Source of the DNA: Candidatus Firestoneibacteriota bacterium | GTDB lineage: Bacteria > Oederibacteriota > D2-FULL-39-29 > CAIOVX01 | Assembly: GCA_903861835.1 (NCBI GenBank) | Contig: CAIOVX010000011.1 | Location: forward strand, 66,122-130,121 | DNA: 64,000 nt | Direction of reading: 5' to 3' | Part shown: positions 2,941 through 7,308 of the stretch, piece by piece | Numbering within the stretch: the stretch's first letter is position 1 | Layout: the number at the start of each line of letters is the position of its first letter | Notes under the pieces: model-generated | The model's database searches: none | Told to the model about the DNA's origin: nothing | What the model saw: only the letters and a program-made list of their open reading frames with translations | Program-made: the position numbers and the translations under genes

Positions 2941-3849
2941 TTACTCGTGATGTTTAATCTCCGAAGCCGTTATCCCGCTCTTCGCTCCTGCTATAATCCC
3001 CTTTCCTTTGCAGCCGAAGTAGCCGATGTATTCCCTTACTCTGTCCTTCACCGCGTTCTTGCCTGGGAGGAGGATCTTTCTCATATCTTTTTCCGCAGGG
3101 TTCTTGTTGTAGGTCGCGCCGACTGCTTCAACGAAGGAGACGGAAAGCTGGGTCGCCACATTGATCTTGCAGAGCCCGTTCGCGATTCCTTCTATTATGG
3201 AAGCAGGGTCAACGCCTGAAGAGCCGTGAAGCACCAGGGGAATATTTACGACCTGGCGAATTCTCTTAAGTCTCGGTATGTCAAGCTTCGCGGTCCTGTC
3301 CTTCATTGCATGGACTGAGCCGATCGCGACTGCGAGGGAGTCTATCTTGGTGAGTTCTATGAATTTTACCGCTTCATCCGGCTGGGTCATGGCTTTCTCG
3401 ACCTGTTCAGGTGAAACCTTATCGGCTGACTGGAGTACTTTGCCGAGTTCCGCTTCTACAGGGATGCCGCAGGCGTGGGCCATTTCCGTGATTTTCGCTG
3501 TCATCCTTACGTTCTCTTCGAAAGAGAGCGCTGAGCCGTCGAACATAAGCGATGTGAAGCCGGCCCTTAAACACCTTACGTTCTGGAGATAGTCCGTGCC
3601 GTGGTCAAGGTGAAGGATCACCGGGACCGACGCAAGTTCCGCGGCCGCTTTTACTATTGCGGTCGACATTTCAAGGCCTGCGTACTTTATCGCGCCCTGG
3701 CTGACCTGGATGATTACAGGCGCTTTTTCTTCTTCCGCGGTCTCTATGATAGCTTCCACGAACTCCATATTGTTCGCGTTAAACGCGCCGATAGCGAATT
3801 TCTCCGCTTGCGCTTTGAGCAACCATTCCTTACTGTTTACTAACGGCAT
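2941..3849 (-). CDS. fba: Class II fructose/tagatose-bisphosphate aldolase
   Basis: Matches include MPLVNSKEWLLKAQAEKFAIGAFNANNMEF, the HLDHG metal-binding motif and GIPVEAELG. Length is 302 aa. Confidence 0.9.
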   Translation of the reverse strand: MPLVNSKEWLLKAQAEKFAIGAFNANNMEFVEAIIETAEEEKAPVIIQVSQGAIKYAGLEMSTAIVKAAAELASVPVILHLDHGTDYLQNVRCLRAGFTSLMFDGSALSFEENVRMTAKITEMAHACGIPVEAELGKVLQSADKVSPEQVEKAMTQPDEAVKFIELTKIDSLAVAIGSVHAMKDRTAKLDIPRLKRIRQVVNIPLVLHGSSGVDPASIIEGIANGLCKINVATQLSVSFVEAVGATYNKNPAEKDMRKILLPGKNAVKDRVREYIGYFGCKGKGIIAGAKSGITASEIKHHE

Positions 3850-3890
3850 ACTTGCCTCCTGAAAAAGAATTTAGATACCTTAGTTTGGCC

Positions 3891-3920
3891 AAAAAAAAGC
3901 CCCCTTTCGGAGGCTTTTGT
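3891..3920 (-). terminator. Putative ndk terminator (minus strand)
   Basis: On the minus strand the sequence reads GCCTCC-GAAA-GGGGGC followed by a T8 run. Confidence 0.4.
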
Positions 3921-3949
3921 TCGCTGTTTGAAGAACAGAAAAGTTAAGC

Positions 3950-4453
3950 CTACGCCCAGACCTTCATCGTGACTTCCTTAAAAGCAGCCACTTTGGAGGG
4001 ATAAACATCTACTATGACGTCTTCGGGTTTAAACCAGAGCTTTATTTCGCGTTCCGCGTCTGTTTCGTCGGAAGAAGCGTGAATGACATTTTCGAAAACG
4101 CCGGTTGTGGTAATCCTGCCGTAAGCTCCCCTGATGGATACCGGGTCTGCTTCTTCCGGATTGGTAGCTCCGGCAATTTCTCTGACTTTCTTGATGGCAT
4201 CCTTGCCCCAATAAACCATAGCGAGCACTTTGTGTCTGTCGTGATACTCGCCAAGGAGGTATTTGATAACATCTTCAAAGAAAGGTTTTTCTTTGAGATG
4301 CCGGTAGTGTTCCACCGCGAGAGCTCTGTCGACCTTAACCACTTTTGCGGCGATAATCTCGAGTTTTGTTTCTGAAAGCCTCGTTAGGATGTTCCCTGTC
4401 AGGGATTTCTTTAGTCCGTCAGGTTTTACTATTACAAGGGTTGATTGGCTCAT
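3950..4453 (-). CDS. ndk: Nucleoside diphosphate kinase
   Basis: The NDK signature is present: TLVIVKPDG, the NIIHASD-like HASSDE region, and YGRITTTG with the active-site His context. Confidence 0.9.
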   Translation of the reverse strand: MSQSTLVIVKPDGLKKSLTGNILTRLSETKLEIIAAKVVKVDRALAVEHYRHLKEKPFFEDVIKYLLGEYHDRHKVLAMVYWGKDAIKKVREIAGATNPEEADPVSIRGAYGRITTTGVFENVIHASSDETDAEREIKLWFKPEDVIVDVYPSKVAAFKEVTMKVWA

Positions 4454-4583
4454 AGGTTAATCTTATAACATACGGATTTTCCTAAGTCAACGGGAAATCT
4501 GCCGAGCGGGCAAGCTAATATTTTTCGTTGACTTTACCGCCTGGAAGTAATACTTTTGTTATATAGCAAAACGGAGGCTGTTT

Positions 4584-4865
4584 ATGAATATTGTCCACGT
4601 TGCCGGTGAGAATAAAGGAAAGGTGATGATTTACGCTCTTTCCACCTGCATTTGGTGCCGCAAGACGAAACAGCTTCTGAAAGACAAGAAAGTCTCTTTT
4701 GACTATTGCGATGTTGATCTTGAAGAAGGCGCTGAGAAAGAGGCCGCCCAGCAGGCCATCAAGAAGTGGAATCCCTCGGTCTCTTTTCCCACACTTGTTA
4801 TTGACAATAAGGATGCCGTGCTTGGCTATCAGCCTGATGAGATTAAGGAGAAACTCGGGCTATGA
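4584..4865 (+). CDS. Glutaredoxin/NrdH-like thiol-disulfide oxidoreductase (CIWC active site)
   Basis: Thioredoxin-fold layout with a CxxC (CIWC) after the first beta strand, 93 aa. The 4-nt overlap with the next gene suggests translational coupling. Confidence 0.65.
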   Translation: MNIVHVAGENKGKVMIYALSTCIWCRKTKQLLKDKKVSFDYCDVDLEEGAEKEAAQQAIKKWNPSVSFPTLVIDNKDAVLGYQPDEIKEKLGL

Positions 4866-5377
4866 TAGATGTAAAAAAGGCCCTTGCGGCTGAAGTAGAG
4901 AGAGTCTATCCGAAAATTAAAAAAGATGCCGAGGCCGGAGGCTATCACTTAAATCCTGATGTGCAGTTTGCCAAGGATCTCATCCTCGGTCTGCTGGTAA
5001 ATGAAAAGAGATATGGCTACTGGGCCTGTCCGTGCCGGCTTGCTTCAGGCATCAAGAATGAAGACCTTGATATAATCTGCCCCTGTGATTACCGCGACGC
5101 GGACCTGGCGGCTCACGAAGCTTGCTATTGCGCTCTTTATGTCTCCGCCAGAATAGGCGCCGGTAAAGAAGCGGCGGAAGCTATCCCGGACAGAAGGCCG
5201 CCGAAAGAAGATCGTGACGAGATGAAGACGAAAGCAAGGACCGAAAGAGTAAGACGGCTTCCCACCTTGCCGATATGGCGCTGCAAGGTATGCGGCTATC
5301 TATGCGCCCGGGAAGACCCACCCGATATCTGTCCGATATGCAAGGCCGGAAAAGATCGGTTCGAGGTCTTTGCCTGA
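4862..5377 (+). CDS. Ferredoxin:thioredoxin-reductase-like catalytic subunit fused to a C-terminal rubredoxin domain
   Basis: Shows the FTR catalytic-chain Cys pattern CPC...CPC...C(Y)C: WACPCR, ICPCDYR and ACYCALY. The C-terminal CKVCGY...CPICKAGK is a rubredoxin-type CxxCG...CPxCG knuckle pair. Confidence 0.65.
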   Translation: MIDVKKALAAEVERVYPKIKKDAEAGGYHLNPDVQFAKDLILGLLVNEKRYGYWACPCRLASGIKNEDLDIICPCDYRDADLAAHEACYCALYVSARIGAGKEAAEAIPDRRPPKEDRDEMKTKARTERVRRLPTLPIWRCKVCGYLCAREDPPDICPICKAGKDRFEVFA

Positions 5378-5378
5378 T

Positions 5379-5543
5379 ATGAATAAATCGGAATTTTGCT
5401 CAGAGTGCTGGTGTTGCAGGAAGGCTCGCGAGAAACCGGGAAGTTTCTGGCACGGCTTTGTAAGATTTATCTACCATACCCTCTGGTGTCCTTACTGCAA
5501 GGCTTACGAAAAGGAAACCGGCAAGAAACCCTACGGGAACTAA
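5379..5543 (+). CDS. Candidate unannotated sORF (54 aa), Cys-rich, with CSECWCC and WCPYC motifs
   Basis: Hand translation in the frame starting at the ATG at 5379, which overlaps the upstream stop by two nt. It gives MNKSEFCSECWCCRKAREKPGSFWHGFVRFIYHTLWCPYCKAYEKETGKKPYGN*. It is not in the ORF track because it is under 60 aa. There is a weak GAGG 12 nt upstream. Confidence 0.3.
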   Translation: MNKSEFCSECWCCRKAREKPGSFWHGFVRFIYHTLWCPYCKAYEKETGKKPYGN

Positions 5544-5589
5544 ACTTCAGCGGCAGGAAACAGGTTAATTGGTTTCGCCCTGATAAATC

Positions 5590-7308
5590 ATGGAGGAAGG
5601 CATGGCGGCTTTGGAAAAGGTACTGAATAAGAGCGACAAAAGCAATTCGTTGTTTGAGGCGGAGATACGGAAGATAAAAATTCCTATCTGCAAGAAATTC
5701 TTGAAAGGCGGAAAAATCTCGGCGGTTGATTTTAAGGCTTCAAAGAATTCAGTTTCCTCAAAGGACTCCACTAAAGTCTTTGCGAGTTTCCCGAACCTCA
5801 GGGAGACCGCTTCAAAAGTAATGCAGGGCGTGCGCGGCGGTAAAGTCCCTAAACTAAAAGGCAAGAGGATTGCCGTGCTCTTCTCAGGCGGACCTGCGGC
5901 CGGCGGGCATAATGTGGTCGCCGGGCTCTTTGATATGCTCACGGCTTCCAAATGCACGCTGCTCGGTGTTAAGGCCGGGCCAAAAGGGCTTATTAACGGG
6001 GAACTATTTGCGGTAAAAGCGGAAGACATAAAGAGAATAAAGAATACCGGAGGCTTTGATTATCTCGGTTCGGACAGGACAAAGATAAAGACAGAAGAGC
6101 AGTTCTCCGCGGTAAAGAAGACCTGCGTGGACAACAAACTTGACGCTATTGTTGTGGTGGGCGGAGACGATTCCAATACCAATGCTGCTGTTCTCGCGGA
6201 GTATCTCTTTAAGGGAGTCAAACCGGACGGCTCCGGCGTTCAGGTGATAGGCGTTCCCAAGACCATTGACGGGGATCTGCAGATAGGGAAATACCTGCCC
6301 ATATCTTTTGGATTTGACACTGCGACCAAGATCTTCGCCGAGATGGTGGGCAATATTCTTCAGGATACACCGTCCTCCAGAAAGTACTGGCATTTTATAA
6401 AACTGATGGGACGCGCTGCCAGCCACGTTGCTCTTGAGGTGGCGCTCCAGACAAAACCCGCGATAGCTCTTATCTCGGAAGAGGTCGCGGAAAAAAAGAT
6501 GGCTCTTGCGGATATAGTAAAGCAGATAGGCGACACCGTTATCAGCCGCGCCGGAAACAAAATGAATTATGGCGTGGTGGTCGTTCCGGAAGGGTTGATT
6601 GAATTTATTCCGGAAATGAACCTGCTGATTCACGAGCTTAATCATATTGTAGCGAGACACGAGAAAGAGACTGCGGAACTGGAACTTGCAAAGAAGATAG
6701 AGTTTGTGAGGGCAAAACTTTCCGAAGAGCACAGCAGTCTCTTCGCGAGCCTGCCGCATTACATCCAGGAGATGCTGCTCTTTGACCGCGATTCCCACGG
6801 TAACCTGCAGGTCTCTCAGATTCCGACAGAAAAGCTGCTTATTGATATGGTGAAGAAGTACGTGAAGAAAAGTGCACCTGAGACGAAATTCTCCACGCTA
6901 AACCATTTCTTCGGCTATGAAGGCAGATGCGGCGCGCCCTCGCTCTTTGACGCGGCCTATTGCTATAACCTGGGCCTTACGGCAGGAGCGGCCATTGTTA
7001 ACGGTATGACCGGTTACATTGTATCTTTCACGCAGTTAGACAAAGGAGGAGAGATCCTTGCGATCCCTCTTGTCGGCCTTTTAAACATCGAGATGAGGCA
7101 CGGCAAGGAAGAGATGGTGATAGAAAAAGCGCTTGTTAAGACTGATTCTCCTGCCTTCAGGTACTTTGCGGCTAACAGGGCAAGGTGGGGTGAAAAAGAC
7201 CTCTTTACTTCTCCAGGTCCGCGCCAGCTCTGGGGGCCTGTCTCCAACCAAATGCCGATGACAGTCGCGCTGAATCAGGGGTATGGGAAATTAGGGTTTA
7301 AAATTTAA
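5590..7308 (+). CDS. pfp: Pyrophosphate-dependent 6-phosphofructokinase, long form
   Basis: Has GGPAAGGHNVVAG, the GVPKTIDGDL catalytic motif and the MGR substrate loop. The ~570 aa length is typical of long PPi-PFKs. Confidence 0.85.
   Translation: MEEGMAALEKVLNKSDKSNSLFEAEIRKIKIPICKKFLKGGKISAVDFKASKNSVSSKDSTKVFASFPNLRETASKVMQGVRGGKVPKLKGKRIAVLFSGGPAAGGHNVVAGLFDMLTASKCTLLGVKAGPKGLINGELFAVKAEDIKRIKNTGGFDYLGSDRTKIKTEEQFSAVKKTCVDNKLDAIVVVGGDDSNTNAAVLAEYLFKGVKPDGSGVQVIGVPKTIDGDLQIGKYLPISFGFDTATKIFAEMVGNILQDTPSSRKYWHFIKLMGRAASHVALEVALQTKPAIALISEEVAEKKMALADIVKQIGDTVISRAGNKMNYGVVVVPEGLIEFIPEMNLLIHELNHIVARHEKETAELELAKKIEFVRAKLSEEHSSLFASLPHYIQEMLLFDRDSHGNLQVSQIPTEKLLIDMVKKYVKKSAPETKFSTLNHFFGYEGRCGAPSLFDAAYCYNLGLTAGAAIVNGMTGYIVSFTQLDKGGEILAIPLVGLLNIEMRHGKEEMVIEKALVKTDSPAFRYFAANRARWGEKDLFTSPGPRQLWGPVSNQMPMTVALNQGYGKLGFKI

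What the first reader, a model, noticed from the sequence alone, without database searches (positions are those of the whole stretch)
4584..5543. Compact thiol-redox cassette: Grx-like protein, FTR-like catalytic subunit fused to rubredoxin, and a hidden Cys-rich sORF
The 171-aa protein carries the ferredoxin:thioredoxin reductase catalytic-chain Cys pattern (CPC-x16-CPC-x8-C-Y-C, with the usual His of CHC replaced by Tyr) fused to a rubredoxin knuckle pair. No FTR variable subunit is present. FTR-like proteins with rubredoxin as a built-in electron donor are known from a few anaerobes but remain little studied. It is translationally coupled on both sides. Upstream (4-nt overlap) is a CIWC glutaredoxin/NrdH-like protein, a likely disulfide substrate. 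Downstream, the ATG overlaps the FTR-like stop by two nt, starting a 54-codon ORF absent from the track. That ORF is rich in Cys: CSECWCC plus WCPYC, a Grx-type CPYC preceded by a Trx-type Trp.
Basis: partly seen in the sequence, partly recalled or inferred. Interest (0 to 1): 0.6.

Follow-up and report, generated by a model that had tools for sequence, protein, structure and literature searches.

The report
Known redox gene pair plus mini-protein
This is a well-known two-gene system for reducing protein disulfide bonds in anaerobes (a glutaredoxin-like protein and its iron-sulfur reductase), but in this bacterial group it has picked up a third, real and conserved gene for a 54-residue cysteine-rich protein that belongs to a large family nobody has characterised.

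Summary
The window is from Candidatus Firestonebacteria.

**Reductase.** The 171-aa protein is a ferredoxin:disulfide reductase (FDR). It matches the solved Methanosarcina acetivorans FDR (PDB 4TPU) at E = 7e-62. All ten ligand Cys are invariant in homologs, and CYC instead of CHC is normal for this family. The family is large (at least 8000 clusters), not rare.

**Glutaredoxin-like protein.** The CIWC protein is the cognate partner:
- It sits directly upstream of FDR in five other lineages.
- It matches Methanosarcina Grx structures at E = 1e-28.
- A natural Grx-FTRc fusion has been solved (7PWE).
- FDR to NrdH-like electron transfer is published.

**sORF (5379-5543).** It is a real gene:
- It has the same length and position in four species-level relatives.
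- dN/dS is 0.06-0.23 in its frame and 0.4-6.7 in the other frames.
- Conservation collapses at its stop codon.

It belongs to an uncurated family of about 2600 clusters. Members are typically 65-70 aa with invariant CxxCxxC...CPxC, and the predicted fold is all-helical. It is not a Trx/Grx fold.

Outside this clade the family never lies near FDR (0 of 83 loci). A functional link to FDR is therefore plausible but unproven.

**Corrections.** The real spacing is CPC-x14-CPC-x12-CYC. The sORF ATG lies 1 nt after the FDR stop and does not overlap it.

The parts
4454..4583 (+). Divergent intergenic region between ndk (-) and the Grx-like gene. It presumably holds the operon promoter and carries a strong Shine-Dalgarno (GGAGG, 6 nt before ATG 4584).
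   Evidence: Read directly from the sequence. The consensus scan found no high-scoring sigma-70 site here, so the promoter is inferred, not shown.
4584..4865 (+). Glutaredoxin-like protein, 93 aa, active site C22-I-W-C25. It is the cognate disulfide carrier of FDR.
   Evidence: Pfam PF00462 E = 8e-14. PDB 3NZN and 5CAX Methanosarcina 'glutaredoxin' at E = 1e-28 and 7e-26, both with CVWC. YALSTCxWC is invariant in the Grx genes upstream of FDR in the three further lineages aligned. dN/dS 0.02-0.04.
4862..5377 (+). Ferredoxin:disulfide reductase (FDR), 171 aa. The start overlaps the Grx stop by 4 nt (ATGA).
   Evidence: PDB 4TPU (M. acetivorans FDR) E = 6.8e-62 over aa 10-170. At least 8000 homolog clusters. 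dN/dS 0.02-0.11.
4916..5173 (+). FTR-catalytic-like domain (aa 19-104) with C56-P-C58, C73-P-C75 and C88-Y-C90. By homology these form the [4Fe-4S] site and the redox-active disulfide.
   Evidence: Pfam PF02943 E = 3e-18. All six Cys are invariant and Y89 is nearly invariant in 32 homologs.
5276..5365 (+). Rubredoxin-like domain (aa 139-168) with knuckles C141-x2-C144 and C157-P-x-C160, plus an invariant C148.
   Evidence: Pfam PF21349 E = 1.1e-14. The Cys are invariant in 32 homologs.
5379..5543 (+). Gene for a 54-aa Cys-rich mini-protein. Family-invariant residues are C7, C10, C13, R17, C37, C40 and A42; C12 is an extra, clade-specific Cys. The ATG lies 1 nt after the FDR stop.
   Evidence: Same length and position in four species-level variants. 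dN/dS 0.06-0.23 in this frame against 0.4-6.7 in the other frames. Four-way nucleotide conservation drops at its stop codon. Family of 2578 clusters with no Pfam, NCBIfam or PDB match. AF2 gives four helices at pLDDT 78.
5602..7308 (+). PPi-type phosphofructokinase. This is a neighbouring gene and is not claimed as part of the system. No terminator separates it from the sORF in this window.
   Evidence: Pfam PFK E = 1e-42. No terminator-like site between 5543 and 5602. Relative L001 has a terminator-like hairpin between the sORF and PFK. The alignment with relatives supports a start at 5602.

Best explanation
The locus is a Grx-FDR thiol-reducing module of a known and widespread kind, with a third gene added in one Firestonebacteria clade.

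**Proposed mechanism**
1. A low-potential donor (ferredoxin in Methanosarcina) reduces the Fe(Cys)4 rubredoxin-like domain of FDR.
2. Electrons pass to the [4Fe-4S] cluster and its adjacent redox-active disulfide in the FTRc-like domain (CPC/CPC/CYC).
3. That site reduces the CIWC disulfide of the co-translated glutaredoxin-like protein.
4. The Grx-like protein then reduces target disulfides. The targets are unknown here. In Methanosarcina barkeri the target is the class III ribonucleotide reductase.

Steps 1-4 are inferred from homology to characterised proteins. None of them was shown here.

**The third gene**
It encodes a real 54-aa helical protein from a large uncharacterised family defined by CxxCxxC(x3)R...CPxCxA. 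It most likely binds a metal centre; Fe-S versus Zn is unresolved. It starts 1-2 nt after the FDR stop, so it is probably made by termination-reinitiation in step with FDR.

My preferred reading is that in this clade it serves as an accessory redox partner of FDR, either as an electron-input adaptor or as a Cys-rich client kept reduced. That link is an inference from gene order in one clade only.
For: **FDR identity**
- Pfam FeThRed_B plus a rubredoxin-like domain.
- PDB 4TPU at E = 7e-62, which also has CYC.
- All ten ligand Cys invariant in 32 homologs.

**Grx partnership**
- Grx lies directly upstream of FDR in L100, L101, L102, L103 and L105.
- The CxWC motif is invariant.
- Methanosarcina Grx structures match at E = 1e-28.
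- PDB 7PWE is a Grx-FTRc fusion.
- One source names a homolog 'ferredoxin:glutaredoxin reductase'.
- FDR reduces a Trx-like protein in M. acetivorans and feeds the M. barkeri class III RNR through NrdH (PMC6262447, PMC9176816 Table 1).

**sORF is a gene**
- Four variants, all 54 aa, all 1-2 nt after the FDR stop.
- Omega is 0.06-0.23, and 12-19 of 18-27 differences per pair fall at third codon positions.
- The upstream frame is broken in L006, which fixes the ATG as the start.
- Conservation falls at the stop codon.
- Distant homologs share five invariant Cys.

**sORF belongs with Grx-FDR rather than PFK**
- L001 has a terminator-like hairpin after the sORF.
Against: **Against a functional link between the mini-protein and FDR**
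- In 79 metagenome loci plus four others that carry distant family members, no FDR or Grx lies within the flanks held, up to 5 kb each side.
- Their same-strand neighbours are heterogeneous, with no redox enrichment.
- In 5 of 5 FDR loci outside the clade, no family member is nearby.

**Other weaknesses**
- The protein is basic (net about +5), unlike typical acidic ferredoxins.
- Metal binding is inferred from the Cys pattern alone.
- The AF2 models are only moderately confident (pLDDT 77-78) and have no fold match in the PDB.
- No expression data were available.
Confidence: 0.8

Rival explanations
1. Passenger gene. The mini-protein has a function of its own, unrelated to FDR (for example a small metalloprotein or a regulator). 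It simply landed between FDR and PFK in an ancestor of this clade, and the tight spacing reflects genome compaction only.
For: The family is widespread with variable neighbours and is never near FDR or Grx elsewhere. Canonical members are very highly conserved across phyla, which suggests a self-contained role. FDR loci in other lineages lack it.
Against: The 1-2 nt spacing after the FDR stop is kept in all four variants. The clade's copy is remodelled: the N-terminal helix is lost and Cys12, Trp11 and Trp36 are gained, which fits adaptation to a new partner. L001 has a terminator-like hairpin after the sORF, which would put the sORF in the Grx-FDR transcript.
Confidence: 0.4
2. The sORF product is a miniature thiol-disulfide oxidoreductase that uses WCPYC as a Grx/Trx-type active site and acts as another substrate or carrier in the chain.
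For: CPxC lies at the N-terminus of a predicted helix, which is the geometry of redox-active CxxC motifs. There are weak sub-threshold matches to Thioredoxin_7 and Thioredoxin_2 (E = 0.1) and to mycoredoxin (E = 0.04) over about 18 residues.
Against: At 54 aa and predicted all-helical, it cannot form a Trx fold. W36 is absent from the wider family. The motif is CSYC in L011 and CAYC in P0134. Three further Cys and an Arg are invariant, pointing to a multi-Cys site. The Pfam matches are far below their cut-offs.
Confidence: 0.1
3. The sORF is not translated. Its conservation reflects a nucleotide-level element, such as an RNA structure or the PFK leader or promoter.
For: The 3' half of the sORF (5469-5528) is the most conserved stretch of the locus at nucleotide level (83-90% four-way identity). 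dS in the sORF (0.4-0.9) is lower than in Grx and FDR (0.6-2.8). No terminator precedes PFK in the window.
Against: Differences fall mainly at third codon positions, and omega is far below 1 only in the sORF frame. Distant protein homologs exist in other phyla in unrelated contexts. There is no Rfam match. The predicted hairpin shows no covariation. The downstream intergenic region is variable and has indels.
Confidence: 0.03

Closest known systems
Ferredoxin:disulfide reductase (FDR) of Methanosarcina acetivorans (MA1659; PDB 4TPU; Kumar et al. 2015; Prakash et al. 2018, both as cited in PMC6262447)
   Same: The architecture is the same: an FTRc-like domain followed by a C-terminal rubredoxin-like domain. 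It matches at E = 7e-62 over the full length and has CPC/CPC/CYC with Tyr. No variable subunit is encoded next to it.
   Different: This one is bacterial (Firestonebacteria). Its electron donor and targets are untested. A 54-aa Cys-rich gene is coupled to its 3' end, which is not a feature described for FDR loci.
FDR / NrdH-like glutaredoxin / class III ribonucleotide reductase system of Methanosarcina barkeri (Wei et al. 2015, cited in PMC9176816 and PMC6262447)
   Same: A Grx/NrdH-like CxxC protein is paired with FDR as its reductase. The window's Grx is a close relative of the Methanosarcina Grx structures 3NZN and 5CAX (E = 1e-28 and 7e-26; CVWC versus CIWC).
   Different: No nrdD or nrdG was seen among the genes examined around the pair; the immediate neighbours are ndk, fba and PPi-PFK. 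The physiological target here is unknown.
Plant/cyanobacterial ferredoxin:thioredoxin reductase (FTR heterodimer)
   Same: The catalytic domain is homologous (PF02943), with six Cys in three C-x-C pairs.
   Different: The third pair is CYC, not CHC. The spacing is x14/x12, not x16/x8. A rubredoxin domain is fused. No variable-subunit gene is adjacent. The partner is a Grx-like protein, not a canonical WCGPC thioredoxin.
PDB 7PWE, deposited as 'ferredoxin-thioredoxin reductase subunit B' (196 aa): a natural Grx-like-FTRc fusion
   Same: Its N-terminal 84 aa align with the window's Grx (E = 8e-12) and residues 81-191 align with the FDR catalytic domain (E = 8e-33). This Rosetta-stone fusion supports the Grx-FDR partnership.
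   Different: It is a single chain without a rubredoxin domain. Its active site is CGFC rather than CIWC.
Single-cluster ferredoxins and alpha-helical ferredoxin domains (CxxCxxC...CP motif). This is a resemblance for the mini-protein only.
   Same: It has three Cys spaced CxxCxxC plus a distant Cys-Pro, in a helical context. One family member gives a weak Fer4_17 match (E = 0.002).
   Different: It has a fifth invariant Cys and an invariant Arg at the position where the fourth Cys of the classic motif would be. It is basic rather than acidic. It has no significant sequence or fold match to any ferredoxin.

Membership tests
FDR (FTRc-like + rubredoxin ferredoxin:disulfide reductase) | FTR catalytic-chain domain (PF02943) above the curated cut-off | tested here: met
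   66.3 bits against a cut-off of 22, E = 3e-18
FDR (FTRc-like + rubredoxin ferredoxin:disulfide reductase) | Six Cys in three C-x-C pairs (cluster ligands plus redox-active disulfide) | tested here: met
   C56, C58, C73, C75, C88 and C90 are present and invariant in 32 homologs
FDR (FTRc-like + rubredoxin ferredoxin:disulfide reductase) | C-terminal rubredoxin-like domain with two Cys knuckles | tested here: met
   PF21349 E = 1e-14. C141, C144, C157 and C160 are invariant
FDR (FTRc-like + rubredoxin ferredoxin:disulfide reductase) | Full-length homology to the structurally characterised FDR | tested here: met
   PDB 4TPU E = 6.8e-62, aa 10-170 against 4-171
FDR (FTRc-like + rubredoxin ferredoxin:disulfide reductase) | [4Fe-4S] and Fe(Cys)4 cofactors; ferredoxin-dependent disulfide reductase activity | not testable with these tools
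   Needs purified protein, spectroscopy and activity assays
Classical FTR heterodimer (plant/cyanobacterial type) | CHC third motif and CPC-x16-CPC-x8-CHC spacing | tested here: not met
   The motif is CYC and the spacing is x14/x12
Classical FTR heterodimer (plant/cyanobacterial type) | Variable subunit (FTRv) as partner | tested here: inconclusive
   None of the adjacent genes is FTRv-like. The rest of the genome is not available.
FDR-associated glutaredoxin-like protein (Methanosarcina Grx/NrdH-like type) | Glutaredoxin fold domain with a CxxC active site | tested here: met
   PF00462 at 52 bits against a cut-off of 22.9. C22-I-W-C25. E = 1e-28 to PDB 3NZN
FDR-associated glutaredoxin-like protein (Methanosarcina Grx/NrdH-like type) | Encoded directly upstream of, or fused to, an FTRc-like reductase | tested here: met
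   4-nt overlap here. The same order is seen in five other lineages. Fusion in 7PWE
FDR-associated glutaredoxin-like protein (Methanosarcina Grx/NrdH-like type) | Membership of the curated NCBIfam models YruB (TIGR02196) or NrdH (TIGR02194) | tested here: not met
   52.4 bits against a cut-off of 88.55, and 35.1 against 85.75. It is related to both but is a member of neither model.
   54 aa. AF2 predicts four helices and no strands. The Thioredoxin_7 and Thioredoxin_2 matches have E = 0.1, far below their cut-offs
Uncharacterised 5-Cys mini-protein family (defined here) | C-x2(3)-C-x2-C-x3-R ... C-P-x-C-x-A signature in a protein of about 54-70 aa | tested here: met
   C7, C10, C13, R17, C37, C40 and A42 are invariant in 14- and 122-sequence alignments. 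The family HMM scores the window ORF at E = 1e-22 (though the model includes this sequence). The independent search reached distant members at E = 4e-6 to 4e-4.
[4Fe-4S] ferredoxin-like proteins (considered for the sORF product) | CxxCxxC plus a distal Cys-Pro ligating one cubane, with detectable ferredoxin homology | tested here: inconclusive
   The motif is present. There is no significant Pfam, PDB or fold match. Cofactor content is not testable here.

The most novel reading that the evidence does not exclude
The 54-aa protein is a previously unrecognised third component of an FDR system. It would be a helical mini-metalloprotein, possibly a minimal [4Fe-4S] carrier using CxxCxxC...CP, that docks on FDR's rubredoxin domain as a dedicated electron-input partner or is its dedicated client. 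Its roughly 2600-cluster family would then be a new class of small redox proteins across anaerobic candidate phyla.
Probability: 0.2. Interest if true: 0.65.

Novelty: new variant of a known kind. Interest (0 to 1): 0.42.

Why it matters
The Grx-FDR pair itself adds little. It extends a characterised ferredoxin-dependent thiol-reducing system to Firestonebacteria and shows again that the pairing is conserved across many phyla.

The value lies in the small gene:
- It is a clear case of a real, selected 54-codon gene that gene callers miss in some relatives.
- It gives the first functional hint for a large, strongly conserved family of 5-Cys mini-proteins that has no Pfam, NCBIfam or PDB entry. 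The hint is translational coupling to a disulfide reductase.
- If the link holds, it would add a component to FTR-like redox chains in anaerobes.
- If it does not hold, the family is still a well-defined target for characterising a small metalloprotein.

Tried and rejected
**RNA element instead of a gene.** Rejected. There is no Rfam match in 3800-6200. RNAalifold on four species gave a hairpin without covariation.

**Alternative reading frames.** Rejected. The 76-codon ORF at 5396-5626 is interrupted in L001 and L011, and omega is at least 0.4 in both other frames.

**A longer sORF starting upstream inside FDR.** Rejected. That frame carries stop codons in L006.

**Conserved three-gene cassette across taxa.** Rejected. 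Only the Grx-FDR pair is conserved.

**Guilt by association for the mini-protein family.**
- Clustering of neighbour ORFs in 83 loci found no recurrent partner.
- A Pfam survey of 52 same-strand neighbours was equally heterogeneous.
- A suspected shared context (DUF5989 and carbamoyltransferase near both L017 and L100) did not hold up. The adjacent large proteins are not homologous.

**Zinc-ribbon, rubredoxin, ZAS anti-sigma and Trx assignments for the mini-protein.**
- Only scattered sub-threshold Pfam and NCBIfam hits were found.
- The HxxxCxxC pattern in this copy is not conserved in the family.

**Fold searches.**
- Foldseek against the PDB gave nothing for either model.

**Selenocysteine variants of the conserved Cys.** None were found in 85 loci. 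The CPxC positions were fixed by the search pattern, so this check is weak for those two Cys.

**Second copy in the window.** None.

**Primary papers.** Wei 2015 and Prakash 2018 are not held in the library. They are cited only through papers that reference them.
Full report
**1. What is in the sequence**

ORF listing and direct reading confirm three co-oriented ORFs:
- 4584-4865: 93 aa with C22-I-W-C25.
- 4862-5377: 171 aa.
- 5379-5543: 54 aa, MNKSEFCSECWCCRKAREKPGSFWHGFVRFIYHTLWCPYCKAYEKETGKKPYGN.

The Grx stop and the FDR start overlap by 4 nt (ATGA).

- The FDR stop is TGA at 5375-5377 and the sORF ATG is at 5379, so there is a 1-nt spacer (TGAtATG) and no overlap.
- The Cys spacing is CPC-x14-CPC-x12-CYC, not x16/x8, which is the plant FTR spacing.

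Pfam assigns Glutaredoxin (E = 8e-14) to the first protein. It assigns FeThRed_B (E = 3e-18, aa 19-104) plus a rubredoxin-like domain (RUBY_RBDX, E = 1e-14, aa 139-168) to the second. It assigns nothing significant to the third. NCBIfam agrees.

The neighbours are housekeeping genes: EamA, class II FBP aldolase (-), ndk (-), then the three genes, a PPi-type PFK, a DEAD-box helicase (-) and a complex I operon. Related contigs come from Candidatus Firestonebacteria MAGs.

**2. The 171-aa protein is an ordinary member of a known, large family**

- It matches PDB 4TPU, the ferredoxin:disulfide reductase (FDR) of Methanosarcina acetivorans, at E = 6.8e-62 over its whole length. That protein also has CYC.
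- A protein search returned 8000 scored hits, which is the cap. Nearly all listed hits have the same two domains, and one source calls a homolog 'ferredoxin:glutaredoxin reductase'.
- In a 32-sequence alignment at 55-85% identity, C56, C58, C73, C75, C88, C90, C141, C144, C157 and C160 are invariant and Y89 is nearly invariant.

The claim that such proteins are known from only a few anaerobes is not supported.

The literature reached through PMC6262447 and PMC9176816 says:
- FDRs are Fe-S enzymes of archaea and bacteria related to FTRc (Balsera 2013).
- One has been structurally characterised (Kumar 2015).
- FDR reduces a Trx-like protein in M. acetivorans (Prakash 2018).
- FDR delivers electrons through a glutaredoxin-like NrdH to the M. 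barkeri class III RNR (Wei 2015).

**3. The Grx-like protein is the cognate partner**

- In five FDR loci from other lineages (L100, L101 Saganbacteria-type, L102, L103, L105; FDR 64-68% identical), a PF00462 gene lies directly upstream of FDR, overlapping it or within a few nt.
- The three of these Grx proteins that I aligned with the clade's four share an invariant YALSTC-x-WC motif.
- The window's Grx matches two Methanosarcina 'glutaredoxin' structures, 3NZN and 5CAX (both CVWC), at E = 1e-28 and 7e-26.
- PDB 7PWE is a single chain whose N-terminus aligns with this Grx and whose C-terminus aligns with the FTRc domain. It is a Rosetta-stone fusion.

The protein scores below the curated cut-offs of the YruB and NrdH NCBIfam models, so I do not file it under either.

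**4. The sORF is a real gene**

- The one close protein homolog (P0001, 85% identical by BLASTP, 54 aa) is called in syntenic contigs immediately after FDR.
- In contigs whose FDR is 80% identical, no gene was called, but the ORF is there: 54 codons with a 2-nt spacer.
- A fourth variant (L011) came from the genome scan.
- A contig whose FDR is 77% identical also has a called 54-aa ORF 1 nt after FDR, but no DNA was available for it.

Nei-Gojobori estimates for the six pairs of the four variants:

| Region | dN/dS |
|---|---|
| sORF, its own frame | 0.06-0.23 |
| sORF region, the two other frames | 0.4-6.7 |
| Grx | 0.02-0.04 |
| FDR (aa 1-115) | 0.02-0.11 |

- In the sORF frame, 12-19 of the 18-27 differences per pair fall at third codon positions.
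- The alternative 76-codon ORF (5396-5626) is broken in L001 and L011.
- The frame upstream of the ATG carries stop codons in L006, which fixes the start.
- Four-way nucleotide identity is 67-90% inside the sORF and collapses, with indels, right after its stop.
- There is no Rfam match, and a predicted hairpin shows no covariation.

**5. The sORF belongs to a large uncharacterised family**

- A two-sequence profile searched against 1.84 billion representatives found 12 further small proteins (61-87 aa; 11 of them inspected) matching positions 4-53 at E = 7e-6 to 4e-4.
- A 14-sequence profile then found 2578 clusters, typically 65-70 aa. None of the 120 listed has a Pfam domain. Named sources include Omnitrophota, Latescibacteria, KSB1, Kiritimatiellia, Verrucomicrobia and Anaerolineae.
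- Invariant columns are C7, C10, C13, R17, C37, C40 and A42 (window numbering). P38 and several aromatic and basic positions are nearly invariant.
- Canonical members are strikingly alike across phyla: ITEKDRxMAQxCxECPVCxxARxKQKGxAFWFVKxIEGxxCPYCKAYEKVYGRKAHEP.
- The Firestonebacteria copy is a divergent, shortened form (33-48% identical). It lacks the N-terminal helix and has gained C12, W11 and W36.
CWCC and the 'Trx-type Trp' are specific to this clade, and CPYC is CSYC in L011 and CAYC in P0134.
- AlphaFold2 with the family alignment predicts four short helices for both the window protein (pLDDT 77.7) and a canonical member (77.2).
- Foldseek finds no PDB analogue. Profile searches of PDB, Pfam and NCBIfam find nothing significant.

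The protein cannot form a Trx/Grx fold. The pattern CxxCxxC plus a distal CP-x-C recalls a single-cluster ferredoxin site with one extra Cys, but the protein is basic and has no detectable ferredoxin homology. I therefore call it a probable metal or cluster-binding mini-protein and leave Fe-S versus Zn open.

**6. Is it functionally tied to FDR?**

For a link:
- The 1-2 nt spacing after the FDR stop is kept in all four variants, which suggests termination-reinitiation.
- The copy in this clade has been remodelled.
- A terminator-like hairpin follows the sORF in L001, which would place the sORF in the Grx-FDR transcript and not with PFK.

Against a link:
- In 79 metagenome loci (L021-L099) and four other loci with distant family members, tblastn with the window's FDR and Grx finds nothing within the flanks held, up to 5 kb each side.
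- Neighbour clustering and a Pfam survey of 52 same-strand neighbours show no recurrent partner and no redox enrichment.
- The five FDR loci outside the clade have no family member nearby.

The three-gene arrangement is a lineage-specific addition to a two-gene module. I put a true functional partnership at roughly 0.35-0.4, an unrelated passenger gene at about 0.4, and the rest on other roles.

**7. Mechanism**

Inferred by homology: a low-potential donor reduces the rubredoxin-like Fe(Cys)4 site. Electrons pass to the [4Fe-4S] cluster and redox-active disulfide of the FTRc-like domain, then to the CIWC disulfide of the Grx-like protein, and then to targets. The targets are unknown here; the immediate neighbours (ndk, fba, PFK) do not include nrdD.

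Shown here:
- the domain content;
- the invariant ligand Cys;
- conserved gene order and overlap;
- homology to the characterised proteins.

The mini-protein's role as an electron-input adaptor or a client of this chain is a hypothesis.

**8. Verdict**

The FDR-Grx core is already known and widespread. The new element is a real, selected small gene from a large uncurated 5-Cys helical family, coupled to FDR only in this clade. I rate the locus a new variant of a known kind, of moderate interest.

Noticed in passing
window 5590-5610: The PFK ORF is listed from ATG 5590 (572 aa). Alignment with relatives (568 aa) and a GGAGG 5 nt before ATG 5602 suggest the true start is 5602. That makes the sORF-PFK spacer 58 nt.
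   Followed up: partly
L001 4166-4355 (between the sORF and PFK in a relative): This relative has a 190-nt intergenic insert with two GC-rich hairpins. One is terminator-like on the + strand (4282-4295 followed by a T-run). The window, L006 and L011 have much shorter spacers (about 50-70 nt). Operon structure may therefore differ between close relatives.
   Followed up: partly
window 5469-5528: The 3' half of the sORF is the most conserved stretch of the whole locus at nucleotide level (83-90% four-way identity). dS in the sORF (0.4-0.9) is lower than in Grx and FDR (0.6-2.8). This may mean extra synonymous constraint, or it may be small-sample noise.
   Followed up: partly
proteins P0006-P0034 (FDR homologs, 211-220 aa): A large subgroup of FDR homologs (about 56-64% identical) carries two tandem rubredoxin-like domains. 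In P0007 the WRCKVCGYLCARDEPP...CPVCKAKKDRFERF module is duplicated.
   Followed up: no
window 5303-5305 (FDR Cys148): A fifth Cys in the rubredoxin-like domain (GYLC148AR) is invariant in 32 homologs, although it is not one of the four knuckle ligands.
   Followed up: no
proteins P0122, P0125 (646 and 567 aa): Two long, acidic repeat proteins carry 7-9 copies of a G(D/E)CWCCKR motif that matches sORF positions 3-17. This is probably an unrelated Cys-rich repeat that shares the CWCC(K/R) string.
   Followed up: no
L035 1566-2696: One metagenome locus has the mini-protein domain in frame at the C-terminus of a 376-aa ORF whose N-terminal part resembles, by eye, a metallo-beta-lactamase fold (not scanned against Pfam). 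A homologous ORF precedes the sORF in L082, in a different frame. This may be a fusion or a missing stop codon.
   Followed up: partly
L016 378-536, L017 3353-3511, L100 5065-5223: DUF5989 and carbamoyltransferase genes occur near mini-protein homologs (L016, L017) and also near an FDR locus (L100). The adjacent large proteins are not homologous, so this is probably coincidence.
   Followed up: yes
L010 and L012 (same MAG, CAITPB01 contigs 132 and 264): One Firestonebacteria MAG holds two different Grx-FDR-sORF alleles on two contigs. This suggests a mixed-strain bin rather than paralogs.
   Followed up: no
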